In this document: in pieces, positions 5,051 to 57,989 of the stretch
Layout: each line of letters begins with the position of its first letter
Position numbering within the stretch: position 1 is the stretch's first letter
NCBI RefSeq assembly: GCF_006345805.1
Contig: NC_043008.1
Location: 66,898,001-66,962,000, forward strand
Source of the DNA: Octopus sinensis
Lineage: Eukaryota
DNA length: 64,000 bases
Direction of reading: 5' to 3'
Notes under the pieces: generated by a model
What the model was told of the DNA's origin: nothing
The model's input: the letters and a program-made list of their open reading frames with translations, nothing else
Databases searched by the model: none
Made by a program: the position numbers and the translations under genes

Positions 5051-5633
5051 TGTGTAATAACTACTAGAATCTATGCCAGAAGTATGGAATACCAAACATA
5101 ACGAAAAGTGCAGGCGTGATTGTGTGGTAAGAAGCTTGCTTCCAAACCACATGGTTCTGGGTTCAGTCCCACTGTGAGGACACCTTAGACAAGTGTCTTA
5201 TACTGTTCAGGCTGACCAAAGCTTTGTAAGTGGATTTGGTAGACAGAAATGCAAAGAAGTGGCAAGCTGGCAGAAACAAGGTGGCAAGCTGGCAGAAACG
5301 TTAGCATGCTTAGCGGTATTTTGTCTGTCTTTATATTCTGAGTTCAAGTTCCACCGAGGTCGACTTAACCTTTCATCCTTTTGGGGTTGATTAAATAAGT
5401 ACCAGTTACACACTGGGGTTGATATAATCGACTTAATCTGTTTGTCTGTCCTTGTTTGTCCCCTCTGTGTGTAGCCCCTTGTGGTCAGTAAAGAAATAAG
5501 AAATGGAAAGAAGCCCATCATATATGTATATATATATTAATATTTTTATAAGCTTAAAGCTTATAAGCAATTACTGTGTATTGACTAAAGAAAATAGTCT
5601 AATATTGGGGTTTATCACGGAAAGAAGCGAGGT

Positions 5634-7300: not shown

Positions 7301-8296
7301 ATAAGGGGTACAAGATTTGAGTAGTTCCATATTTGATGGCACAAAGGATGCATGGGCATATTAGATTCACCTTAATTTCAATGGTGTGTATTCAAGAAAA
7401 TAAAAACAACTTTTTAGTGCATTACAACTTTGCAAACAAAACTCAGGGTAATTTATTGAGATATTTTTTGGTGGGGGAAAAAGTGCATCTTATATTGCCA
7501 TCAAATACGATGCTTTATTTTATCACCTCTGAAAGGATTAAAAGCAAAATTGGCTTCAGAGGGGATTGAGCTAAGAATTCAGAGACTAGAAACAAATAAC
7601 CAAATATCCAGTACATTAACAATTCTGCCAACCAAACACCACAGCAATTATAATGATGGTGGTGATGATGATGAAGAGGAGAAGGAGGAAGAAGATTTTT
7701 CTTATTTGCCACAAATAAAGTCCTCCTTCTCCACTTCTTATTTCTTATTTCTTGTTTCTTTACTGCCCACAAGGGGCTACACACAGAGGGGACAAACAAG
7801 GACAGACAAACGGATTGAGTCGATTATATCAACCCCAGTGTGTAACTGGTACTTATTTAATTGACCCTGAAAGGATGAAAGGCAAAATCGACCTTGGCAG
7901 AATTTGAACTCAGAATGTAAAGACAGATGAAATACCACTAAGCATTTCGCCTGGCGTGCTCACATTTCTGCCAGCTCGCTGCCTTCACTTCTCCTTCACT
8001 TCTCCTAAGTTACAAGTTCTTGATGTCACAAAGACAGGTTGCTTGTAGTGGGGAGGGCTTACATATAAACCGGATAAAGTAAAAAGAAAGAGTGATATAA
8101 TTAAAGCATAAACAATGACGACAACAACAACAATGATGATGATGATGATGTTGATGATAAAGCAGCTGCACTAGAGGAGGGAGACAAGAGCATGAACGTG
8201 AAAAACATTTAAATCTTGAATTAATATTCAGCAAAAAACAAAAGTAGAGTAATATCACAAGATTTCAATGGTGAGAAATATAATATATATATATAA

Positions 8297-12340: not shown

Positions 12341-13046
12341 TTAGTTGCTACCATTAAAAGTGAAACTGAAGGAATCAGCAAGCTGAGTGAATAAAGTGTT
12401 TTTTTAGGAGGTATTGGTGTTACTAAAAATAGTTATAGTATCAATGACCCATGGTTCACTTCTGCTGAGTGTGGAAGATGAAGCAAGATACAGTCTTAAA
12501 AATAGTTGCACAGATTCATTAGTACTAGAATGTTCTTGTTTTTAGAGGTGTTCAATTAATTTTGATTTATTATTATTTTTTTCCACAATTGTTATTCTAG
12601 TAATTTATAATTTTCTAGCCATATTAGGTGTAATGCATTCAGCTAAATTTCTTAAAAGTACATTTATTTGCATGCAGACACCTTAAACTATGTTCTTGGC
12701 AAGTATTTAGAAGTAAAAATTTTGTACCAAATTTTTGCTTCTAAATTTAATCTGATAAAACACTAGGTAAGAACAGGGCTTAAGGTGGCTTCATACAAAT
12801 AAATGTACTTTTAAGAAATTTAAATGAATGAATTACACTTAATATGGCTAGAAAATTATAAATTACTAGAATGACAATTGTGGAAACAAAAAAATAATAA
12901 CTCACAATTATTACACCATTCTGCTTAAATAATGGAACTGCAAATACAACATCCTTACGTATCTCATGTCTGTTTTCATTCCTCCACTTCAATATGTATT
13001 TCATATCTTCTCTACAATAATTACTACTTAAACATTTTCTCACACC

Positions 13047-13094
13047 GTCTCTGATGAAGGGATACATAAAATATCCCAGAAACAGCTGTAAGAC
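13047..13094 (+). ncRNA. Type I hammerhead ribozyme motif
   Basis: gtct-CTGATGA-a[gggata/tatccc]a-GAAAC-agct-GTA-agac, with palindromic stem III ACAGCTGT. Confidence 0.75.
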
Positions 13095-15962
13095 CTTCTC
13101 TTTATAAATGTTCTGGAAACTATTCACAGCCTTGGATTTTTTTTTATCTCATTCTGTTAATTTATATGTATTTTGCTTCTCAAAACCCCACTATATAGAA
13201 CAATATTCTTATTCTGATTTTTACTGCTTACCTTTTTTTGTCACAATCAATTTCATTTTCTCATTCCCTCTATGCTGCCTCTCTTTCTCTCTTCTGATGA
13301 AGGACTAACAACCAAAAAGTTAAAGCATTAAGTTAATATCTTATTTGTCAAACATTGTTCCACTTGAGCTGCCCTTTTTATTGTTCATTCTATTTGCATT
13401 ATACGTATACACATCATCATCATTTAATGACATGAATGCACACACACACACACACACACACATTATTGGGGTCCAGAAAGAAAAGTATGTTCTGTTGCAG
13501 AAATCAACTGCCCTCTGGACATTAATGTGGTCAGAAAAAAACATGGGAAAGAGGACATCTGTGGACCACTGATAAGGAGTTTGCAAATTCAGGACCCAAG
13601 ACACATTTTCAGCTTCATACACTGAAGCAACAGGTTATGTACCAATCCCACTGGAGCAGTGTGTGGTTGAACTTGGGGTTCTTGGGAAGAAAATATAGCT
13701 GCTAAATTCATATACTACAAATGATCACAATACCAGGGACAATAAAAGACTGCAAGGCTTTTGTAAGATTTAAAAGAAGATGAACAAAACAAGGTGCTTT
13801 CTTTTCCAACTTGCTACCAAGCAGGTGGTTAGTCAAAATTAACTCTCAGTTAAAAAGATAAGATGCATACATACATACATACACACAAACACATACATAA
13901 TTCATACATATATCATAAGAAAAGGTAACTGTTGATTCTAAGTTATCTCATACTAGCTTAATATGAGTGTTGTTTAGAAGTCAAAAGTCTCAGCTTACCA
14001 GAAGAAAAGAATTGGAGTGGCTAACTAGCCATATAAGGTGATAATTGGCTTCTGAGTTTATATATATGTGTGTGTGTGTTAGGAAGTTAAAAGTTATGGC
14101 CGGTCATAAAGATACCATTGGTTTTACACCTATAAAGCGCTTAGCAGTATAGGTGCCTTGTCAGACTCAAATGGCTGAAGGTGGATAACCTCTCTACAAC
14201 TGGAGGAAGAAATACATAATGTAGAGAGGTTATGCACCTTCAAACATTTCTGTCTGATGAGTCACTTACACTTATAAGAACTTTATAGGTGTGAAACCAC
14301 CAGTCGCTCTATGACAGGCCATAACTTTTAACTTCCTAAAAATATATTAGTGCTCTAATTCTTTAGAGTGTGCTTCTTTTTCAGATATATGAACTACTGA
14401 TGATATGTGTGTGTGTGTGTGTGTGTGTGTGTTCATAACACAGCTAAAACAAGGAAGATTATACAGATAAGACAAGTAAGATATGCAATGGAGCAAGCAT
14501 AAATTTGAATTAAAATGAAATGTAGTATTTAGTTATACTGGACAGTATAATGAGTTCAAGCCTTATTTTACCATAATCCAACAGTCTGGGAATATGAAAT
14601 TAAATACCAGTAATATTTTGGGATCTGCTTAATCTATTAAACTCCTTTTCGGTTTTCTGGCTCAATGTCTGTGTGTATATGTTTATGTTTCTTATTTCTT
14701 TACTGCCCACAGAGAGGACAAACAAGGACAGACAAACGGATTAAGTCGATTATATCAACCCCAGTACGTAACTGGTACTTATTATTTGACCCCAAAAGAA
14801 TGAAAGGCAAAGTCGACCTCGGTGGAATTTGAACTCAGAACATAGCAGCAGACGAAATACCTATTTCTTTACTACCCACAAGGGGCTAAACACAGAGAGG
14901 AAAAACAAGGACAGACAAACAGATTAAGTCGATTATATCAACCCCAGTGCATAACTGGTACTTATTTAACCGACCCCAAAAGGATGAAAGGCAAAGTCGA
15001 CCTCGGTGGAATTTGAACTCAGAACATAGCAGCAGACGAAATACCGCTAAGCATTTCGCCCAGCGTGCTAATGTTTCTGCCAGCTCGCTGCCTTTGTTTA
15101 TGTGTTTATGTTTCTCTCTCAAGCTCTTTCTATATAATTACATACAAATACACATATACATACATTCGTGCATGCATACATAAATACATGTGTACAATCG
15201 TACATACACACACATATATATGTATTTAACAATTATAAATTTTGGTTTTTTACTTTGATAATTTGAAGACAGCAGAATGTATAATTTTAATTTATAATTT
15301 GAAGGGAAATAGAAAATAAAATTGTATAAGAAAGGAGTTAAAGAAAGAGTAGAAACTTAAAAGATGAAAAGGACAGCCTGAAGTAGCTACAATAATAAGA
15401 ATGCAATTAATTAATTAAAACAGAAAAAAACCCCATCAAAATGAATAAATAAACAGAAATATTTTTGTCAGAATAATGGAATAATTTGCCTTGTGGAATC
15501 GATAAATCTAAAAATATATCTGAAAAATCTGAAGGAATTGCAGAAAAATGTGTTGACTTTCTGAGATACTGAAATACCATCTTAAATATAGTCACTTGAG
15601 CTGCTGGAAACACTAACTTAATCTCCTTCAAATGACACTTTATTGTCTTAGCAAAAGACACATTGAATATGATTCTGGGTTATCTGCATGTTGAGAAAAG
15701 ACAGGATAGTTATGGCTGGAATGCCTTTGATCAACGGTCAACTCAATTCAGAACTGACCTGGGACTAAACAACAATAATAACAATAATTCTTCTATTGTT
15801 CCGATATAGGCACAAGCCCAGAATTTTACATCAACCCCAATACTTGACTGGTACTTTATTTTGTTGACCCTGGAATGATGAAAAGTAAAGTCAACTTCGG
15901 CGGCATTTGCATTCAGGACATAAAGCCAGAAGAAATGTTGCTAAGCATTTTATCCTCAATAT

Positions 15963-21341: not shown

Positions 21342-21576
21342 TTGTGTGTGAAATATGTATAAGGTGGCGAACTGGCAGAAACATTAGCACGCCGGGCGAA
21401 ATGCTTAGCAGTATTTCGTTCTGAGTTCAAATTTCGTCGAGGTCGACTTTGCCTTTCATCCTTTCGGGGTCGATAAATTAAGGACCAGTTACGCACTGGG
21501 GTCGATATAATCAACTTAATCCATTTGTCTGTCCTTGTTTGTCCCCTCTGTGTTTAGCCCCATGTGGGTAGTAACG

Positions 21577-21611
<35 letters not shown>

Positions 21612-21694
21612 GGTCCCGGGTTGATTCGGGGTTAACCACAGTAAATAAGGTACTCAATACATAGTAGAGTAAAATTAATTTATTATATAGAAGG

Positions 21695-21745
21695 AGCTTC
21701 TACAGGACTAGAACTGTTTCATTCAAGAGAAATCTTCAGGAAGCT
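21695..21745 (-). ncRNA. Type I hammerhead motif in the left arm of the palindrome
   Basis: Reverse complement of 24949-24999. Confidence 0.72.
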
Positions 21746-22842
21746 AGTTAACAAGAATTGTATTGGCATTTATACATTTAGGCATGTTTAAAGGGGTGTT
21801 GGTGGGGGACTTTTTGGGGGTAGGCATAGCGCAAAATATCATACTTGGGGGAGTGGTCAAGGAGTCAGTGTTAAATTAGATAGAAGAATAAATAAAAAAA
21901 TTAAAAAAATATAAGAAAATATATATATATATAAAAAAAAAAAAAAGGGAATAGAGTTTTAGGTAAATAAGGAGATTCTCACTTATACCTATGCACATAT
22001 GTATACATATATACACACACACACACAAACGTACATACATATACATACACACATACGTACACACACACATATATACATATATATACACTTACACATACAT
22101 ATCCATATCTACACATACACATATATGTATACATACACACACTCACATGCATACACGTATACACACATGTATATATACACACACGACCACACATACATAT
22201 ACACACAGAAAAATATATATACACATACACACATACTCACATACACGCATACACACACATATCCACACACACATGCACACACAGCACACTAGTCCCTATA
22301 TACACATATATACACATACACACACATATATACACACACATACATATACATACATATATATATATATATATATAATATATATACATATGTGTACCTATGC
22401 ATACCTACACATACACACATATATATACACATACATATACAGACCCATTCCCTAATTTTAATTTTATTATCTTCATTTATTACTTTTGTTATCTTTGATC
22501 ACTGGTCACAAACATCTTGGCTATGACAGCCAGTCCATTTATCTGTCTACTGGAAAACAAGCACTCATTTACTCACGCACACTCTTTAGCACGTACACTC
22601 ACTCATTCGTACACTCATACACATACACACGCACGCACGCGTTATATTCATACATACATACATCTACATACATTCACGTATATATACATACGTACGCGTA
22701 CCTACAGATTCATGTCTACACTCTTAGAAGGCTAGTCTATACATATACACCAATAAATATAAATACACACACATACATATACACCTACATACAAATACAT
22801 ACATGTATATATATATATATATACACACACATCCACATATAT

Positions 22843-22893
<51 letters not shown>

Positions 22894-23116
22894 TACATAC
22901 ATATATATATATATATACATATACACACATACACATACATACATATACACACATACACATACATACGTATACATACATACATCCATACATCCATACATAC
23001 ATACATTTATACACATACACACACCCACACGTATACATATACGTACATATATATACGCGCATGCATACACATACAAATACATACACATACGCATATACAT
23101 ATACATACATACACAT

Positions 23117-23155
<39 letters not shown>

Positions 23156-23710
23156 CATACACACACATACATATACATACATACATATACAAATATACGC
23201 ACACACATACATATATACTCATATACACATACACGCACATACACATGTACATGCGTACCCATACACACACACACACACACGCATCCATATATACACATAA
23301 GTACACACATGCGTAAAAGTATACATATATCTATGCTTACACATACACACACACACACTTGCCTTCTTATATTCATACTTACATGCATACTCAAAAAATA
23401 AGTAAATAGTAAAATATATATACGCGCAGTTATTCATACATGCATACTCAAAAAATAAATAATATACAATATTTATTATTTATTTTTTGAGTATGCATGT
23501 ATGAATAACTGCGCGTATATATATTTTACTATTTACTTATTTTTTGAGTATGCATGTAAGTATGAATATAAGGAGGCAAGTGTGTGTGTGTGTGTATGGG
23601 TACGCATGTACATGTGTATGTGCGTGTATGTGTATATGAGTATATGTATGGTGGTGCGTATATTTGTATATGTATGTATGTATATGTATGTGTGTGTATG
23701 TATATATATA

Positions 23711-23751
<41 letters not shown>

Positions 23752-23951
23752 GTATGTGTATGTATGTATATGTATATGCGTATGTGTATGTATTTGTATG
23801 TGTATGCATGCGCGTATATATATGTACGTATATGTATACGTGTGGGTGTGTGTATGTGTATAATGTATGTATGTATGTATACGTATGTATGTGTATGTGT
23901 GTATATGTATGTATGTGTATGTGTGTATATGTATATATATATATGTATGTA

Positions 23952-23992
<41 letters not shown>

Positions 23993-24948
23993 ATATATGT
24001 GGATGTGTGTGTATATATATATATATACATGTATGTATTTGTATGTAGGTGTATATGTATGTGTGTGTATTTATATTTATTGGTGTATATGTATAGACTA
24101 GCCTTCTAAGAGTGTAGACATGAATCTGTAGGTGCGCGTACGTATGTGTATATACGTGAATGTATGTAGATGTATGTATGTATGAATATAACGCGTGCGT
24201 GCGTGTGTATGTGTATGAGTGTACGAATGAGTGAGTGTACGTGCTAAAGAGTGTGCGTGAGTAAATCCAGTAGACAGATAAATGGACTGGCTGTCATAGC
24301 CAAGATGTTTGTGACCAGCGATCAAAGATAACAAAAGTAATAAATGAAGATAAAATTAAAATTAGGGAATGGGTCTGTATATGTATGTGTATATATATGT
24401 GTGTATGTGTAGGTATGCATAGGTACACATATGTATATATATATATATATATATGTATGTATATGTATGTGTGTGTATATATGTGTGTGTATGTGTATAT
24501 ATGTGTATATAGGGACTAGTGTGCTGTGTGTGCATGTGTGTGTGTGGATATGTGTGTGTATGCGTGTATGTGAGTATGTGTGTGTATGTGTAGATATGGA
24601 TATGTATGTGTAAGTGTATATATATGTATATATGTGTGTGTGTACGTATGTGTGTATGTATATGTATGTACGTTTGTGTGTGTGTGTATATATGTATACA
24701 TATGTGCATAGGTATAAGTGAGAATCTCCTTATTTACCTAAAACTCTATTCCCTTTTTTTTTTTTTATATATATATATATTTTTTTATATATTTTTTAAT
24801 TTTTTAATTTTTTTATTTATTCTTCTATCTAATTTAACACTGACTCCAAGTATGATATTTTGCGCTATGCCTACCCCCAAAAAGTCCCCCACCAACACCC
24901 CTTTAAACATGCCTAAATGTATAAATGCCAATACAATTCTTGTTAACT

Positions 24949-24999
24949 AGCTTCCTGAAGATTTCTCTTGAATGAAACAGTTCTAGTCCTGTAGAAGCT
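24949..24999 (+). ncRNA. Type I hammerhead motif in the right arm of the palindrome
   Basis: agcttc-CTGAAGA-tttctcttgaat-GAAACAG-ttctagtc-CTGTA-gaagct. Stems I and III are perfect. Stem II is short with a U.U closing mismatch. Confidence 0.72.
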
Positions 25000-25148
25000 C
25001 CTTCTATATAATAAATATATATATATATATATTATATATATATATATATAACGGGAAGCTTTATGAAAATAAACAAAAGACGAAGGCAGGGGGAAAACAA
25101 ACGAACAAATGTATTAGTATGGCGCTCAGGAAATATAAATAAAACAAG

Positions 25149-32525: not shown

Positions 32526-33774
32526 ATGGACTTTCTGAGATTGTATTCAATGGTCTGTAGAACTTGCTGGATAAATTCAGGGGTTCTGATGATTTGAGGG
32601 CATTTAGAATGCTTTTTATGCTTTGATACTGGTGATACATTTCCACCTCCAGTCTACTGATAATTTCTAGTAAAAGGAAATCACATAAATGGGAGTTCCA
32701 GTATCTATGACAGGCAATTCTCATCTGCTATGATCTATGAGTGCTTTTATGCTCCAAGTGCCTCTCAAGGATCCTTCAAGACTAATAATGTGGTATTCAG
32801 TATTCTAACAGACATCCATGTTAAGGTAGATATAAAGATTACTTTTGGTACACTGCTTTTGTCAATAACAATATTTAATAAGTCTGCTGGTTATTTGCGA
32901 AATCAGCATCTGCAAAGATGCTGCTATTCTGTATATTCTTTTCTACACAAGGCCCAAAATTTTTTGGGAAGGGGCCAGTGAATTAGATCAACTCCAGTAT
33001 GCAACTGGTACTTAATTTATCGACCCCGAAAGGATGAAAGGCAAAGTCAACCACAGCAGAATTTGAACTCAGAACGTAGCGGCAGACGAAATACCTATTT
33101 CTTTACTACCCACAAGGAGCTAAACACAGAGAGGACAGACAAATGGATTAAGTCGATTATATCGACCCCAGTGCATAACTGGTACTTAATTTATCGACCC
33201 CGAAAGGATGAAAGGCAAAGTCGACTGCGGCAGAATTTGAACTCAGAACATAAAGACAGACGAAATATCGCTAAGCATTTCACCCGGTGTGCTAATGATT
33301 CTACCAGCTCACCACCATGTGGTGACTGGATATCACTCATTGAGGATTTTCAATGAAAGGGAATCATGTAATGTGGGAATTCTGGCACTCCTGACAAACA
33401 AGTTGCTTCTGCTACAATCTATGTGGGTAGTTTTATGCACCTAGTGCTTATATGATAGAATTTCTCAAGGCTAATAATGAAGAATTCAGTGTTCTAACAA
33501 TACATTCATATTACTTTGGACATAAAGATTACTTTATACATATATATTGCATGATACAATTAGATGACAATTTTTTTACCAAATGCAGAAACACCGTTAG
33601 AACAGCAGAAATATTGGGTAAATTACTTTTATAAATTTTTCCTCTTTGTAAGAGTAGTTTACCAAATATTTCTGCTTTTCTAATGACGTTTCTGCATTTG
33701 GAAAAAAAAAATCATCATCTAATTGTATCATACTATACACATTTTGATGCTTACAAAAACACAAATGCTAGTTT

Positions 33775-36156: not shown

Positions 36157-36242
36157 ATGATTTCTCTTACCTAGGATAGGTGTTGCATTAGAATCAGGTG
36201 TGTTCTTAGCGACAAGTAATTCGAGTACATAAAGCGTAAGAA
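36157..36242 (-). other. Partial tandem duplicate of the 3' end of the receptor exon, including its splice donor
   Basis: About 85-nt near-identical copy of ~36378-36463 with 3 substitutions: E to K (GAG>AAG), a silent GCT>GCA, and donor gtaagt>gtaaga. Confidence 0.9.
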
Positions 36243-36391
36243 TTTTTTTAAAATCTTTTAAAAATTAAAAAAAAAAATTTTTTTTTAATTTAAAAAATTT
36301 TTTAAAACTTAAAAAAAATTTTATATAAAGTTTAAAAAATTTTTTAAATTAAAAAAATTTTTTTTTAAATTAAAAAAATGATTTCACTTAC

Positions 36392-36939
36392 CTAGGATAG
36401 GTGTAGCATTAGAATCAGGTGTGTTCTCAGCGACAAGTAATTCGAGTACATAAAGCGTAAGAAAAACAGTAAGTCCTATGGCAATTTTTTCTCCACAATG
36501 ACAGGGAAGCAGGAATGAAGCTAAAGTCATCACACACAACATCAGAGTTGGTGCGATTACAATATAATCATAGTACAAAGACTTCCGGTCGATCTCAATT
36601 GTGAAATGAATCATGGGGTGCCATCCGTCTCCAGGACAACAATCACTGTCGGCTGCAACGCGAGAAAGACTGACGTTCAGCAGTACAAATTCACTGTTCT
36701 CAACGTATTTTGATAGATCCGGCTTACTGGGTTCGTTGAAGAGGTTTAGTTGCTCTCCATCATAAACCCATGACCCGAAGCGCACTGTACATTGTTGACT
36801 ATCGTACGGAAAATAGGTAACATCTACAGAGCATGAAGATTTTATCATTAGTGGCACCATCCAACGTACTCTTCCTGACGGCTTGATCATAATCTTACTT
36901 CCAGTCACATTCACATAACCAGCATTGTTTTCTGACGCC
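36392..36939 (-). CDS. Internal exon of a nicotinic acetylcholine receptor-like (Cys-loop pLGIC) alpha-type subunit, covering loop E, Cys-loop, loops B and C, M1, M2 and the M2-M3 linker
   Basis: Translation has the Cys-loop CSVDVTYFPYDSQQC, loop B FGSWVYDG, vicinal CC, pre-M1 DRKSLYY, and M2 GEKIAIGLTVFLTLYVLELLVAE followed by PDSNATPILG. Acceptor ttttacag|G (AG at 36941-36940) and donor CTAG|gtaagt (GT at 36391-36390). Length is 548 nt = 1 + 182 codons + 1. No other exons of the gene were found in the window. Confidence 0.95.
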
Positions 36940-37210
36940 CTGTAAAACACAGATGGAATAATACGGTGGTACTATAAGCATTTGAAAATATACATTACAA
37001 TATTATAAATATTACAAAGTCATAAGCAAGACGTATTTTGTACTGTTTCAGACATTGATTTAATTCACACACACACACACACAAACAATGCAACACAAAC
37101 ATACAAACACACAGAGGTACACACACAGAGGCACATACACACATCGTGTAAAACAAAGACAAATGCAGGTATATCAAACACCATACAACATAAATCCTTG
37201 GTTTATTTAA

Positions 37211-45745: not shown

Positions 45746-48499
45746 TAAATGTCAACTCTGAAGAACACTGGGTTACATAATCAGGCTTTAACCTAACATC
45801 CCATTGAACCCCTAGTACGAAACCGATTAAGATCGGCCATAATAAATGTATAATACCGTACACTTTGATTAATACACACTGACACTCTCAGATATACATA
45901 CACATATATACACACGTTCATAAATAAATAGGTAAATGTATTCTGAAGCATGATGATCCACAGACACTCACCTCGCACGTATATAATAGACAAATACGCA
46001 TAAATACATACATGAAGATATATATCCGTCCATACGTATAGAAGTATATGAATACATACAGAAAGACCTGAATACACACGTAGACACATATAAAACAACA
46101 TAGATGCATAAATATATATCAGCAAATATATATATATATATACACATATAAATAAAATAATGAAGATACGGGACATATCAGTTTCTTTGATTTGATGTAA
46201 TTGAAATTAGCGAGTGCCACTGACTCTAGCAGGTCAAGAGGGTGTTAGTTATATTGTTTATATGTATACAGGTGGAGAGAAAGGAATTGGAGGGATAAAA
46301 CAAAAATTTCAACGAGGCGGCTGTGATGCCAGAAAGGAGGGAAAGTTGGTGGTTAACTATCTAGGTGGAATTTTAAAGGGAAATTTAAAGAAAGTTGCTC
46401 ATTTCACTCTACTTGTTTGATAATTATGTAAACTCTACGGATATTTATAGATTTTCGGAAATATAATCTGTAAAAAGTCAACGTCCGATTCAAAGTCTGG
46501 TCGCCTCAACCCGTCCATGAGTCTAAAAGAGTAAACTTGGGGGTCAACATCCGAACGAAATGATTGTGTGTGTGTGTGTGTGTAATACACACACACGCGC
46601 ACTCATATATACATAACGAGAGAGAGAAAGTTAAGGATATCTATCGTATCCTCCATACAGAACGATTTCAATTAATCTGCTTCCGATAAAATCAGAAATA
46701 TTGTTGTGTTCCTACGGTGAAAGATTTTAATCTCAACGTTGCAAGATAAAGAAGCAGTCGTCAAGATACAGTATACTCCTGTTTACATCGATAAACAGCA
46801 CCACTTTTCGTTTATTGTTTCTCATTTATGGCTAAGTAAACCGAGCCATTAATGAGTCGGGTAGATTTGTTAGGGTTACAGCGCAATATCGGCGATGTAG
46901 TTTAATAACTGTTGAAGAGACTACAGATCGATCTGACCAAACTACAGCTCTCAAAACCTATCTATTATATCGAATTATTTGAAAGATTAAACCATTGACA
47001 TTTCTAGGAGTTTTAGCATTAATGAATTTAATCGATTTTTCTCTAAGTACACATGAAAAATAAGCGATGTCGTCTGTCAGCTCAATGATTAGCAAAAATC
47101 GGAATAGGAATATTTATTAAACAGGACCCAGACCAAAAAGAAAAAAAAGTTTCTATGGAATTAATGAGTTCTGTATAGATAATAATGATTTTTTTTTTAA
47201 TTAATTAGAAGAGGAATATTCCCCTTTGTTCGAAATAATATTTAATATCGACCATTACAGGAAGCTGTCATGAACAACCCATTTTGCTATTATTATACTA
47301 CGAAAGCATGGAAGCATTTTTCATGCTAACGTGAATATATATAAGGATGTAAAACTAAAGAGATTAAGAGCAAGGGAGTTAGACATGGTTGTTTTAGTTG
47401 AGAAAATTGAATAATTGAGAGAAAAAGTAACGATTAGTGGAAATGGAGAACAATAAAATAACCACTTATTGGAGAGCATTTTCTGCAAGGAAATTCAATA
47501 ATATAAGCACAGTAAACGGTTATATTGTTAAGCTGTCCCTGTGGTTGGTTAAGACGTTCATTTCGCAGCAATATGTATTTCACTACTGCCCACAAGGGGC
47601 TAAACACAGAGGGGACAAACGGATTATGTCGATTACATCGATCCCAGGGCGTAACTGGTACTTAATTTATCGACCCCGAAAGGATGAAAGGCAAAGTCGA
47701 CCTCGGCGGAGCAATATGGTTTCATGTTCGCTCCTACATTTTGACACTTCAAGTCTGACCAGCAGGTTTTGCATGGAATTTCGTGAATTGTGGAAATACA
47801 TTGCCAGGAATGTAATTCTGTGATCGCAATGATGATAATAGATGCAACTCAGGAATAGATCCGCAACTCAATTTCGAGCAAAATCATTGATTGATACTGT
47901 CATCTTCAAGTAGCACTAATTTTACAACGATGGGCGCCTCTTGCAGCCGGTGTTCAGAGAGTAACCATCCACGTTGACATACATGCTTTCATTCTATCAT
48001 GGACTAGACACACACACACACACACACACGATTAATATGTAGTTTACCGTCATAAAATAGTGAAAGTAAATTGGGGGTCTTTAAAAAATGAAAGTAAATT
48101 GCTATAGAAACTGGAAATGAAGACGGTGATATATCAAAATTTCATAACACACTTTGATGGGTGGGATTCCTATGTGGGTCTGGCCAACTTCTCTAGTCAT
48201 GAAGTTGTCAACCATTCACTCAATTGTGTTGGTCCGAACGATGACAACATCCATACACAGACCATAGGAAGGTAATGGATGCACGCCACGAAGAAAATTA
48301 GCCAACAGTGTGAGAATAGTGATGATTTATTTATAACATGTTTTCATGAGCATGTGTGGCGAAACAAATTTAGAGATCGTGAAAAACTATTCACTAATTT
48401 TTATTTCATGCATCAATGATTGTTGTTATCACATAAATGTAATTGTCTTCATCCTATACGTAAAAAGAAAAGAAAACAATATTCCATCCAAAAATTTTT

Positions 48500-55886: not shown

Positions 55887-56787
55887 GTGAGAACATACGT
55901 GCAAAACAAGGTGGGAAAATAGTACTTGAATAGTAAAGGTAGAGTAATATGCTTTTATTAACGTTGCAAAATTATCATAAAAACTGTTATTCAAAGCTTC
56001 ATGTTCCTGTTCGTCAGGCATGGTATATGTAATATTTATTTCTTTACTACCCACAAGGGGCTAAACACAGAGGGGACAAACAAGGACAGACAAAGGGATT
56101 AAGTCGATTATATCGACCCCAGTGCGTAACTGGTACTTAATTTATCGACCCCGAGAGGATGAAAGGCAAAGTCGACCTCGGCGGAATTTGAACTCGGAAC
56201 GTAACGACAGACGAAATACGGCTATATGTAATATTGTGTAATAGATAGTGGAAGCTCGTGTATAGGAACTGCAGCACCCCCTGTTTCCACTCGATATTAT
56301 CGATAACATTCAAAATAACGAGTCCTTTTTTTTCTTTAATTCTTTCTTTCTACTTGTACATTATATAATCTTTAAGCTTAATGTCAGTAGCCATCCCCTA
56401 GTTTATGAAAAAAAAAATCCTTGTGTAGAACTGTGCGCCTCACATTTCCAGCGATGCGGTGTTTGGCTGTTGTGCGCATGCTCACATTTCTGAGATAGGA
56501 AGCTTCACACAAGTGAAAGGGAGCACTGCGAGAACGACAGTGCTGGGTGAAAGGTAATGTTTCTTTTTGACTCCGCGTGTGTTGTGCTTAAAAACATATT
56601 TATATTCTTGAATGTGATAAAGTGTACAACTAGATTATTATCCTGCTTCCAACTTCAATATTGCTGCCAGGATTTGAAAAATAGCCCCACACCACTTATT
56701 TTGTGATTTAGGGAGGATTTTTGAAAAACAAGGGGGAATTAAACTCACTACCCTATACCCTAAAACGCGAACAAATCAAGTTTATGT

Positions 56788-56822
<35 letters not shown>

Positions 56823-56827
<5 letters not shown>

Positions 56828-57989
56828 TTTTCTACATAGGAACCACCCAGAGTTACGCATTTCTCCCATCGTTTGATGCAGCTCTGGAGACCGGTTTTTG
56901 TAGAAGACCCCAGCTTGGTCCTCCAACCACGACGTGACTTCAGAAATCAAGGCTGCATCATCTGGGAAACGCTTTCCTTTCAAAAACAACTTCATGGCTG
57001 GAAAGACGTGAAAATCAGAGGGTGTAAGGTCAGGAGAGGATTTCATAGCCGCACGCCTGTGCTTCTGATCTGGCGACAACTGAGTTGTGGACCGGAGCGT
57101 TGTCCTGCAAGAGGAGGATGCCTTTGCTGATCTTGCCCCGCCTCTTGATTTTGATAGCTTCTCTTAATTTCCTCGAAAGTGAAACATAATAGGCTCCTGT
57201 AATTGTGGTACCCTTTGCCAGGAAATCTGTCATTACTACTCCGTCCTGGTCCCAGAAGACTGTGAGCATGACCTTGCTAGCGGAGGGCTGCACCCTTGCC
57301 TTCTTTGGAGGAGGTGAGTCACGGTGCTTCCACTGCATTGACTAGGCTTTGGTCTCTGGATCATAGTGATGGACCCAGGTTTCATCCTGTGTAATCAGTC
57401 TTTTGAAAAAATTTGACTCATCTTCTTTGCACATCTCCAAATTCATCCTCGAGCACTCGACGCGTTCTTGCTTCTGGAAAGGTGTGAGCAACCTGGGAAT
57501 CCATCTGGCAGACACCTTTTGCATATGCAAATGGTCATGAATGATAGTTTCCACAGACCCGGTACTAATCTTGACCTCATGGGCTATTTGTCTTTTGATG
57601 AGGACAGATGCCTCATCAATGGCAGAAGGGGGAGCTACCAGATTTGGGAGCTGTTTCCACAGAGTTCCGACCATGTTTGTATTCACGATTCCAGCGTTTT
57701 ACAAGGTCATATGATGGGGCATCATCACCATAAGTTACTTTCATTTCATCAAAAGTCTTCTGTGGTGTGCGTCCTTTCAAATACAAAAACCGAATCACTG
57801 CTCGACACTCAACAGGCTCCATTTCACACTTGACTCAGTTCAAACACTTGTAAATCAGAAACCACAATTAGTTCAGAGCTGTAATTTGCCACTTAATCTA
57901 TAGAGATGTAAATTTTTGCACATGCACCATTTCAGCTAGATCAAACAAATGCAAGTGGGTCAGGGGCATTACTTATTGAACGTCCCTCG

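What the first reader, a model, noticed from the sequence alone, without database searches (positions are those of the whole stretch)
21678..25016. 3.3 kb imperfect palindrome with an identical hammerhead at each tip
Seen: arms of ~1.8 and ~1.55 kb meet at a ~12-nt spacer near 23468. They differ by discrete indels in non-microsatellite sequence: ~14 nt near 21848-21861 and aaaacaagcactcattt near 22554-22570 are absent from the right arm. There are also point changes, which argues for a real, aged duplication rather than a read fold-back artefact. The 51-nt hammerheads are identical in both arms. Inference: if the minus-strand receptor pre-mRNA runs through here, it would form >1 kb of dsRNA (an ADAR/Dicer substrate; coleoids are known for very high A-to-I editing) followed by a sense-oriented ribozyme.
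Basis: partly seen in the sequence, partly recalled or inferred. Interest (0 to 1): 0.72.

Follow-up and report, generated by a model that had tools for sequence, protein, structure and literature searches.

The report
Head-to-head Penelope-like retroelement insertion
The 3.3-kb palindrome is one insertion of a very abundant Penelope-like retrotransposon: two truncated copies lie head to head, each ending in the element's own predicted hammerhead ribozyme, inside an intron of an octopus acetylcholine-receptor gene. It is an ordinary product of this element family, and it would likely fold into long double-stranded RNA in the pre-mRNA.

Summary
Arms 21678-23464 and 23474-25016 are inverted copies, 99.1% identical over aligned bases with 16 indels. 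Their outer 171 nt are identical, and each holds a 51-nt hammerhead motif.

It is not a one-off duplication. The tip is a high-copy repeat (1471 first-look candidates, scored copies 98-100% identical). In other copies the arm is the 3' UTR of a 652-aa reverse transcriptase plus C-terminal GIY-YIG-like ORF. That ORF carries the published hallmarks of the Hydra clade of Penelope-like elements (DKT, CxCX5C, CxxC/CxH).

The family also shows the published insertion traits:
- insertion into (TA)n;
- an inverted 5'-truncated partner (15 of 25 other loci);
- a terminal 69-nt tail at one end only (10 of 10 pairs);
- a sense hammerhead about 90 nt from the 3' end.

Rfam does not recognise the hammerhead. 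A covariance model built only from relatives' hammerheads in metagenome contigs hits both tips at 31.4 bits (next best 14.8).

Exon mapping places the element in the ~41.8-kb last intron of a minus-strand nAChR alpha-10-like gene.

Verdict: a new member of a known kind, of modest interest.

The parts
21580..21608 (.). (TA)n microsatellite on the left flank, part of the insertion target
   Evidence: Sequence read. All family copies examined are flanked by (TA)n/(AT)n.
21609..21677 (-). 69-nt 3'-terminal 'tail' of the element (sense on the minus strand, ending ...CCCGGGACCTAC next to (AT)n). It is present at this end only.
   Evidence: the same 69 nt follow the tip in most copies. In 10 of 10 head-to-head pairs, only one end has it. 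It is conserved in diverged subfamilies.
21678..23464 (-). Left arm: a 5'-truncated copy of the element's microsatellite-rich 3' UTR (sense on the minus strand, 3' end at 21678)
   Evidence: 92-97% identical to other copies; the same sequence follows the stop codon of the RT/EN ORF in L035, L057 and L031.
21695..21745 (-). Predicted type I hammerhead, left copy (sense for the host gene's minus-strand transcript). Predicted cleavage lies between 21701 and 21700.
   Evidence: Descriptor hit. Model R1 scores 31.4 bits, E about 9e-8, at 21696-21744.
23465..23473 (.). 9-nt centre. Together with a few neighbouring bases it is the extra stretch of family sequence by which the right arm outruns the left, joined through 2-3 nt of microhomology.
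   Evidence: other copies continue AATATTAAGTATAT... past the arm end; the 91-nt junction matched in full only at this locus, among 40 scored of 523 candidates.
23474..25016 (+). Right arm: the inverted 5'-truncated copy (sense on the plus strand, 3' end at 25016). It has no tail and carries 12 deletions relative to the left arm.
   Evidence: The sequences missing from the right arm are present in the 6 other copies aligned.
24949..24999 (+). Predicted type I hammerhead, right copy: stem I AGCUUC/GAAGCU, core CUGAAGA, U, stem II UUC-UCUU-GAA, U, GAA, stem III ACAG-8 nt-CUGU, then A. Predicted cleavage is after 24993.
   Evidence: R1 31.4 bits at 24950-24998. There is no Rfam match.
25017..25049 (.). 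(TA)-rich microsatellite on the right flank, the rest of the insertion target
36390..36950 (-). Exon of the host gene (nAChR alpha-10-like, residues 139-325). The next and last exon lies left of the window at G000:C12:66892064-66892615 (-).
   Evidence: tblastn gives 98.4% over 187 aa. Residues 326-509 are 100% identical at the C12 position. Upstream exons were found.

Best explanation
The palindrome is a single insertion of a Hydra-clade Penelope-like retroelement (PLE) into a (TA)n microsatellite: two 5'-truncated copies of the element's 3' untranslated region lie head to head with their 3' ends outward, an arrangement likely made during target-primed reverse transcription, and each 3' end carries the element's predicted type I hammerhead.

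Shown:
- The arms are homologous to the ~3.3-3.9-kb microsatellite-rich 3' UTR that follows an RT plus GIY-YIG-like ORF in other copies.
- The sense direction runs from the centre to the tip.
- One end has the terminal 69-nt tail and the other does not.
- The two arms share 11 private substitutions, so they come from one source.
- The insertion lies in the last intron of a minus-strand nAChR alpha-10-like gene.

Inferred:
- The GIY-YIG endonuclease nicks (TA)n, and the tailed end was primed at the RNA's 3' end.
- The untailed end was primed 69 nt further in, at the TA-rich UAUAUAAUAAAU, or was made by copy-back of the nascent cDNA.
- The two cDNAs were joined at the centre through 2-3 nt of microhomology.
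- In the element's own transcripts the hammerhead would cut 92 nt before the 3' end.
- In the host pre-mRNA the arms would pair into a hairpin of about 1.5 kb. This is a plausible ADAR substrate, and it would probably sequester the sense ribozyme.
For: Family size and age:
- The tip is a young high-copy repeat: 1471 first-look candidates, with 40 of the 42 listed matches covering all 171 nt at 99-100% identity.

Link to an RT/EN element:
- In L035 the minus strand reads, in order: (AT)n, an inverted tip, the C-terminal 130 aa of an ORF, a stop codon, 3.3 kb of the arm sequence, the tip, the tail, (AT)n.
- The full ORF P0002 (652 aa) carries LKDHK..RLINP, FDVSMG, LYRDDG, FLDVTLD and a C-terminal LVYTCEV..SYI(G/R)MT..R..H.
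- It matches the Hydra-clade description in PMC8557442 section 11: DKT (SDKTKN), CxCX5C (CNCPDKTTC), and CxxC/CxH around E and N (CDLC..CMH).
- Homologues carry MRWKA.
- The nearest ESM Atlas clusters carry GIY-YIG, RVT_1 and HTH_animal.
- The P0001 domain has 17543 first-look candidates in the genome.

Published PLE insertion traits (PMC8557442, passages) are all seen here:
- (TA)n flanks.
- The tail at one end only, in 10 of 10 pairs.
- A head-to-head partner at 15 of 25 other loci.
- Differing truncation points in L031, L053, L054 and L055.
- Among the 150 scored EN hits: 5 (-)(+) pairs, 0 (+)(-) pairs and 2 same-strand pairs within 10 kb (counted by eye).

Single origin of the two arms:
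- Of 1364 comparable columns, 11 show a letter shared by both arms and absent from all 6 other copies.

Hammerhead:
- The motif is invariant in diverged subfamilies except at N7, loop 2 and loop 3.
- The same kind of motif occurs on the sense strand in 52 of 78 related loci, against 2 on the antisense strand.
- The letters at 10.1/11.1 are U/U in 24 of 49 distinct motifs.
- Model R1, built from relatives only, scores 31.4 bits on both tips. The next best hit in the window scores 14.8 bits.
Against: - Pfam recognises no RT or GIY-YIG domain in P0002 or in four homologues. PDB sequence and profile searches found nothing relevant. No structure could be predicted because the machine was busy.
- Clade assignment rests on motifs and on a published description, not on a tree.
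- Rfam's hammerhead models do not match, even at E<=10 on 131 nt.
- The thermodynamic fold is no better than shuffles (z -0.6). Stem II is only 3 A/U-rich pairs.
- Published Hydra elements are under 3 kb; this family is about 6 kb.
- Two independent truncations landing within ~12 nt of each other are unexpected. L034 and L040 also end within ~60 nt of this point, so either a hot spot or a copy-back step is needed and remains unexplained.
- The right arm's 12 deletions could be real or could be assembly errors.
- No reads confirm the centre.
Confidence: 0.85

Rival explanations
1. Assembly artefact: a chimeric fold-back long read, or a mis-join of two separate copies of a high-copy repeat, produced a palindrome that does not exist in the genome.
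For: The sequence is a very high-copy repeat. The Logan contigs laid on the centre were 40-80-nt unitigs at depths of 1e3-1e5, and none bridged the centre. PMC8557442 (passage) warns that such PLE structures cause assembly problems.
Against: The arms differ by 16 indels and 14 mismatches, unlike a read copied back on itself. Yet they share 11 private substitutions, unlike two unrelated copies. The ends are asymmetric in the family's usual way. Fifteen of 25 other loci have the same head-to-head design.
Confidence: 0.05
2. A later, locus-specific inverted duplication of a single-copy insertion. The second arm would have arisen after insertion by a replication fold-back.
For: The arms are each other's closest kin. 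Both end at nearly the same inner point. There are a few point differences in non-repetitive sequence.
Against: Head-to-head dimers, with a tail on exactly one end, recur across the family (10 of 10 pairs). They also have unequal arms. This points to a process acting at insertion. The untailed outer end abuts (TA)n exactly as in other copies.
Confidence: 0.06
3. A foldback-type or MITE-like DNA transposon with long terminal inverted repeats that targets TA.
For: It has long terminal inverted repeats, TA-rich flanks, and short two-tip copies of 260-480 bp.
Against: The 'TIR' is the 3' UTR of an RT/EN ORF, read in sense towards the tip. Inner ends are variable truncations that can reach into the ORF (L054). 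The outer ends are unequal. No target-site duplication is visible.
Confidence: 0.02
4. An exapted regulatory hairpin. The host would have kept the intronic palindrome and its ribozyme to control the receptor transcript through ADAR, Dicer or self-cleavage.
For: It lies in an intron of a neuronal receptor gene. Octopus shows exceptional hyper-editing and dsRNA potential (PMC5625713, passages).
Against: The insertion is very young. The structure is what the family makes everywhere. There is no conservation or expression evidence.
Confidence: 0.03

Closest known systems
Hydra clade of C-terminal-EN Penelope-like elements (Craig et al. 2021, PMC8557442; includes Hydra-1_Obim from Octopus bimaculoides)
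   Same: [quoted passage not shown] Both show DKT, CxCX5C, CxxC/CxH and no CCHH. Both insert into (TA)n and carry a sense hammerhead about 100 nt from the 3' end; the supplement row for Hydra-1_oBim puts it at 2403 of 2507 nt. The supplement also notes no pLTR in the octopus family.
   Different: The protein motifs differ from the printed Hydra-1_Obim sequence, for example LKDHKDHFENKPSVRLINPTKSDIG here against IKDHKPNFASNPKCRLINPAKSEIG there, so this is another family. This element is about 6 kb, with a 3.3-3.9-kb microsatellite-rich 3' UTR, against under 3 kb. Copy number is very high. No tree was made.
Canonical PLE insertion architecture (inverted 5'-truncated copy, one-sided 'tail')
   Same: A head-to-head inverted truncated copy next to the 5' end, an extension present at one end only, and microsatellite targets. 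All are described in PMC8557442 (passages).
   Different: The tail here is 69 nt, against the published 30-40 bp. In this copy both units are truncated inside the 3' UTR at almost the same point, giving a near-perfect palindrome with no ORF.
Type I hammerhead ribozymes of PLEs and animal retrozymes
   Same: The core is CUGANGA...GAAA...UH, helix I is open, and the motif lies in a retroelement terminus. PLE hammerheads are described as minimal versions (PMC6155905, passage).
   Different: Helix III is 4 bp with an 8-nt loop. The letters at 10.1/11.1 are U/U rather than the usual G-C (recalled). No Rfam model matches. The two copies are inverted rather than tandem, so one transcript holds only one sense ribozyme and cannot release a circle as retrozymes do.
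Palindromic or inverted repeats as ADAR substrates (Xenopus Harbinger; inverted Alu pairs)
   Same: It would work alike: a repeat that folds on itself inside a pre-mRNA into long, nearly perfect dsRNA (PMC5625713, passages).
   Different: Here the palindrome is made by a retroelement's insertion mechanism rather than by a palindromic consensus. Editing was not measured.
L1 twin-priming inversions (recalled, not read)
   Same: The second target strand would prime reverse transcription internally on the RNA, giving an inverted segment.
   Different: Twin priming inverts a different part of the RNA. Here both arms copy the same 3' region.

Membership tests
Penelope-like element, Hydra clade | [quoted passage not shown] | tested here: met
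   Met at motif level only. P0002 has LKDHK..RLINP, FDVSMG, LYRDDG, FLDVTLD, YHKPN..NSNHP, then LVYTCEV..SYIRMTSNSFKTRWYAH. The motifs are conserved in 42 homologues. The nearest Atlas clusters carry GIY-YIG and RVT_1. Pfam itself finds nothing.
Penelope-like element, Hydra clade | DKG changed to DKT; linker CxCX5C; CxxC and CxH around the conserved E and N; no CCHH | tested here: met
   P0002 has SDKTKN, CNCPDKTTC and CDLC..E..N..CMH, read against PMC8557442 section 11.
Penelope-like element, Hydra clade | N-terminal RWK motif | tested here: inconclusive
   Homologues have MRWKA or LRWRA. The open frame of the copy read (P0002) starts downstream of that region.
Penelope-like element, Hydra clade | Insertion into (TA)n | tested here: met
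   Nearly all outer ends in the window and in L003-L030 abut (TA)n/(AT)n.
Penelope-like element, Hydra clade | Inverted 5'-truncated copy at the 5' end; terminal extension at one end only | tested here: met
   15 of 25 other loci have a head-to-head partner. In 10 of 10 pairs one end is tailed and the other is not.
Penelope-like element, Hydra clade | Placement inside the Hydra clade in an RT phylogeny | not tested
   The reference sequences exist only in the paper's supplement and were not entered into tools.
Hammerhead ribozyme, type I | Conserved core C3 U4 G5 A6 N7 G8 A9, G12 A13 A14, A15.1-U16.1, H17, with three helices and helix I open | tested here: met
   Descriptor hit with helix I 6 bp, helix II 3 bp and helix III 4 bp.
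Hammerhead ribozyme, type I | G10.1-C11.1 pair closing helix II (recalled as usual, not universal) | tested here: not met
   It is U/U here. Of 49 distinct motifs in related PLE loci, 24 are also U/U, 16 G/C, 5 G/U and 4 A/U.
Hammerhead ribozyme, type I | Score at or above threshold against curated Rfam hammerhead models | tested here: not met
   No hammerhead family appears at gathering score, nor among the hits shown at E<=10 on 3.9 kb (150 of 160 rows shown), nor on 131 nt.
Hammerhead ribozyme, type I | Match to a covariance model of the hammerheads of related elements | tested here: met
   R1 was built from 22 relatives' motifs, none from this genome. It scores 31.4 bits, E about 9e-8, over the full model on both tips.
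Hammerhead ribozyme, type I | Site-specific self-cleavage | not testable with these tools
   Needs in vitro transcription.
Foldback / MITE DNA transposon | Terminal inverted repeats bounded by a target-site duplication, with no relation to an RT element | tested here: not met
   The arms are the 3' UTR of an RT/EN ORF. The ends are unequal. No duplication is seen.
Animal (non-LTR) retrozyme | Tandem direct repeats, each with a sense hammerhead, able to release a circular RNA | tested here: not met
   The two hammerheads lie on opposite strands.

The most novel reading that the evidence does not exclude
Head-to-head dimers made by this and related Penelope-like families number in the thousands, many of them in introns. 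They could be a major source of the exceptionally high density of long, nearly perfect dsRNA-forming loci and of the hyper-editing reported for octopus. That report left the cause unexplained because octopus repeats were not annotated (PMC5625713). The retroelement's insertion mechanism would then shape the cephalopod ADAR substrate landscape.
Probability: 0.25. Interest if true: 0.6.

Novelty: new member of a known kind. Interest (0 to 1): 0.3.

Why it matters
For this locus, little: it is a textbook-shaped PLE insertion in an intron.

Three things have some value:
1. It documents a very young, very abundant Hydra-clade PLE family in an octopus genome, with an unusually long microsatellite-laden 3' UTR. 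Such an element spreads microsatellites and ready-made palindromes.
2. It shows that the clade's hammerheads commonly carry U/U at 10.1/11.1 and escape the Rfam models, so genome scans that rely on Rfam will miss them.
3. It gives a concrete, countable candidate for why octopus transcripts hold so much long dsRNA.

Tried and rejected
- Rfam. No family reached gathering score in the whole window. At E<=10 the 3.9-kb region gave only microRNA-like hits on CA/TA repeats, which I take as chance matches to low-complexity sequence. The 131-nt tip gave no hammerhead.
- Single-sequence fold of the tip. The MFE structure is not the hammerhead, and z is -0.6.
- Earlier findings of this scan: none near this place.
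- Sequencing runs. No RNA holder was listed; all 24 runs are kept as Logan contigs.
- Second read-laying run, on 23362-23578. Only 40-80-nt unitigs of the repeat family were laid, none bridging the centre. This gives no verdict on the junction. The run guessed to be RNA (X7) holds family pieces, but that does not show transcription of this locus.
- Pfam on P0001, P0002 and four homologues: no RT or GIY-YIG match.
- PDB by sequence and by profile: nothing relevant.
The GIY-YIG and RT folds are therefore unverified.
- SINE-dimer and Helitron readings of the tip (a tRNA-like B-box look-alike, a 3' hairpin). I dropped these once the arm proved to be the 3' UTR of an RT/EN ORF.
- A search for an ADAR-like A-to-G bias in the 14 arm differences: mixed directions, no signal.
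- The covariation counts come from motifs chosen by a pairing descriptor. Their 100% pairing is circular and I do not use it as evidence.
Full report
**Observation**

The inverted repeat is in the sequence as described. The repeat finder gives the outer 171 nt (21678-21848 and 24846-25016) as 100% complementary. It gives the inner arms as meeting with 9 nt between them.

A global alignment of the left arm with the reversed right arm gives 1787 nt against 1543 nt. There are 1504 matches, 14 mismatches (99.1% over aligned pairs) and 16 gap events. Twelve gap events are sequence present only in the left arm.

The 51-nt hammerhead motif is identical at 24949-24999 (+) and 21695-21745 (-). A descriptor scan of both strands of the 64-kb window finds only these two hits. 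Markov simulations gave 0.03 hits per window, with 6 of 200 yielding any hit.

**It is a repeat family, not a local oddity**

The 171-nt tip has 1471 first-look candidates in the 2.72-Gb genome. Forty of the 42 listed matches cover all 171 nt at 99-100% identity, and several lie in (-)(+) pairs 0.1-5.5 kb apart.

The outer ends come in two forms. Either the tip is followed by a conserved 69-nt tail ending ...CCCGGGACCTAC and then (AT)n, or it is followed within 0-12 nt by (AT)n. In 10 of 10 pairs where both ends were seen, one end is tailed and the other is not. I left out L022, which holds two abutting elements. The window copy is tailed on the left (21609-21677) and untailed on the right.

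In other copies the arm sequence continues past the window's centre for at least 1.2 kb more. Both window arms are therefore truncated. The right arm runs about 12 nt further than the left, and that overhang is the 'spacer'.

**What the arm is**

In L035 the minus strand reads, in order: (AT)n, an inverted 196-nt tip, the last 130 codons of an ORF, a stop codon, about 3.3 kb of microsatellite-rich sequence equal to the window's arm, the tip, the tail, (AT)n. That ORF domain has 17543 first-look candidates, with open frames of up to 675 aa.

A 652-aa frame, P0002, holds reverse-transcriptase motifs (LKDHK..RLINP, FDVSMG, LYRDDG, FLDVTLD, YHKPN..NSNHP). It also holds a C-terminal GIY-YIG-like block (LVYTCEV..SYIRMTSNSFKTRWYAH).

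The database search did return 802 proteins at E<=1e-5, the best 120 listed being 38-54% identical and 541-970 aa long. Their N-termini carry MRWKA. The nearest ESM Atlas clusters carry GIY-YIG, RVT_1 and HTH_animal.

Craig et al. 2021 (PMC8557442: section 11 read whole, passages, supplement rows) define the Hydra clade of Penelope-like elements by these features:
- DKT instead of DKG;
- a CxCX5C linker;
- CxxC and CxH around the conserved E and N, with no CCHH;
- an RWK motif;
- (TA)n insertion;
- a canonical hammerhead.

P0002 shows SDKTKN, CNCPDKTTC and CDLC..CMH. The paper's supplement already lists a Hydra-1_Obim family from Octopus bimaculoides, with a sense hammerhead at 2403 of 2507 nt. 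The printed protein differs from P0002, so this is another family of the clade. I made no tree.

**Insertion architecture**

The same paper describes, for PLEs in general, an inverted 5'-truncated copy next to the 5' end and a 30-40-bp tail at one end only. Here 15 of 25 other loci show a head-to-head partner. Six show none within the stretch read, three were not extended, and one is ambiguous.

Truncation points differ between partners. In L031, an inverted copy of 1.3 kb abuts a copy that starts at ORF residue 251. L054 joins copies starting at residues 122 and 541.

Among the 150 scored EN hits I count by eye 5 (-)(+) pairs, 0 (+)(-) pairs and 2 same-strand pairs within 10 kb.

The window copy is the case in which both units are cut inside the 3' UTR at almost the same point. 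Its two arms share 11 letters that none of 6 other copies has, out of 1364 comparable columns. They therefore come from one source. The 91-nt centre matched in full only at this locus, among 40 scored of 523 candidates.

**The hammerhead**

Rfam gives no support, and the free-energy fold is unremarkable. Three other lines support it.

First, in subfamilies whose upstream sequence has diverged to 83-93%, the motif is unchanged except at N7 (A or U), loop 2 and loop 3.

Second, I examined 78 loci encoding relatives, fetched from metagenome contigs. A strict descriptor finds a sense-strand motif in 52 loci and an antisense one in 2. With a looser descriptor, 39 of the 78 have a sense motif downstream of the longest ORF; the sense motifs it lists downstream begin 41-2884 nt past the ORF end (most 60-300 nt), and those upstream mostly begin 50-250 nt before the ORF start. 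Of 49 distinct motifs, the letters flanking helix II are U/U in 24, G/C in 16, G/U in 5 and A/U in 4. The window's U/U is therefore typical of the clade.

Third, I built a covariance model from 22 of those 49 motifs, the ones with a 9-nt helix III. It hits both tips over its whole length at 31.4 bits, with a rough E of about 9e-8. The next best hit in the window scores 14.8 bits. The model also finds the 3' ends of own-genome copies.

The pairing counts are circular and are not used. Activity is untested. Stem II has only three A/U-rich pairs.

**Host context**

An ORF at 36384-36971 (-) is the exon for residues 139-325 of a 509-aa protein that NCBI names neuronal acetylcholine receptor subunit alpha-10-like, from Octopus sinensis. 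Residues 326-509 match at 100% at G000:C12:66892064-66892615 (-), 5.4 kb left of the window. Upstream exons lie to the right. The element therefore sits in a last intron of about 41.8 kb, in a gene transcribed on the minus strand.

A pre-mRNA would carry both arms and could zip into a hairpin whose outer 171 bp are perfect. The sense hammerhead (left arm) is transcribed last and lies inside that duplex, so I expect it to be largely sequestered (inference).

Porath et al. 2017 (PMC5625713, passages) report that octopus has an exceptional hyper-editing rate and an exceptional fraction of loci able to form long, nearly perfect dsRNA. They did not annotate the octopus repeats. They also note heavy editing of Penelope elements in lizard. 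This motivates the novel case. I could not test editing.

**Mechanism**

My best reading, with every step inferred, is as follows:
1. The element's endonuclease nicks a (TA)n target.
2. One 3'-OH primes at the RNA's 3' end, giving the tailed arm.
3. The other arm starts 69 nt further in, where the RNA reads UAUAUAAUAAAU and can pair with a (TA)n end. Alternatively it arises by copy-back of the nascent cDNA.
4. The inner ends are joined through 2-3 nt of microhomology.

The near-equal arm lengths favour copy-back or a hot spot, and L034 and L040 also end within about 60 nt of this point. This remains unexplained. The right arm's deletions could date from synthesis, from later palindrome instability, or from assembly error.

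**Verdict**

The object is an ordinary insertion of a known kind of retroelement carrying its own ribozyme. It is a new family member rather than a new phenomenon.

Noticed in passing
window 13046-13095 (+): A second hammerhead-like motif (stem I GUCU/AGAC, CUGAUGA, a 6-bp stem II, GAAAC, and a very short helix III ACAG/CUGU with no real loop). It scores 14.8 bits, E 0.038, with model R1. It may be the minimal hammerhead of another PLE family.
   Followed up: no
L057 (G000:C1:78641000-78650999), L035, L031: This PLE family carries a 3.3-3.9-kb 3' UTR made largely of CA/TA-type microsatellite-like sequence. This is far longer than the under-3-kb elements described for the clade. Each insertion therefore seeds kilobases of microsatellite.
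   Followed up: partly
L070:4112-4151 (+), L058:3432-3472 (-): Other hammerheads with different stems (38.5 and 32.1 bits with R1) lie near copies of the family. This suggests further Hydra-type families in the same genome.
   Followed up: no
window 36169-36243 (-): A 25-aa duplicate of the end of the receptor exon (residues 301-325, 92% identical) lies about 150 nt downstream of the real exon.
   Followed up: no
window 56753-57698 (-): Three adjacent open frames (..QDETWVHHYDPETK.., ..VFWDQDGVVMTDFLAKGTTITGAYY.., ..LLQDNAPVHNS..) look like a mariner/Tc1-type transposase broken by frameshifts. The resemblance is recalled and was not searched.
   Followed up: no
window 5207-5536, 7460-7864, 14890-15183, 32982-33356, 47431-47823: A repeated frame (..TRGYTQRGQTRTDKQIKSIISTPVCNWYLFN.PQKDERLSRPRWNLNSE..) recurs at least five times on both strands. 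It is probably another interspersed repeat.
   Followed up: no
window 21414-21584: The sequence just left of the insertion target is itself a repeat. It is found at 81-92% identity in L006, L007 and L016.
   Followed up: no
G000:C16:13.35-13.85 Mb: The N-terminal part of the receptor protein also matches a dense cluster of at least 14 intact-looking 390-430-aa frames on contig C16 at 30-37% identity. This looks like a tandem array of single-exon Cys-loop receptor genes.
   Followed up: no
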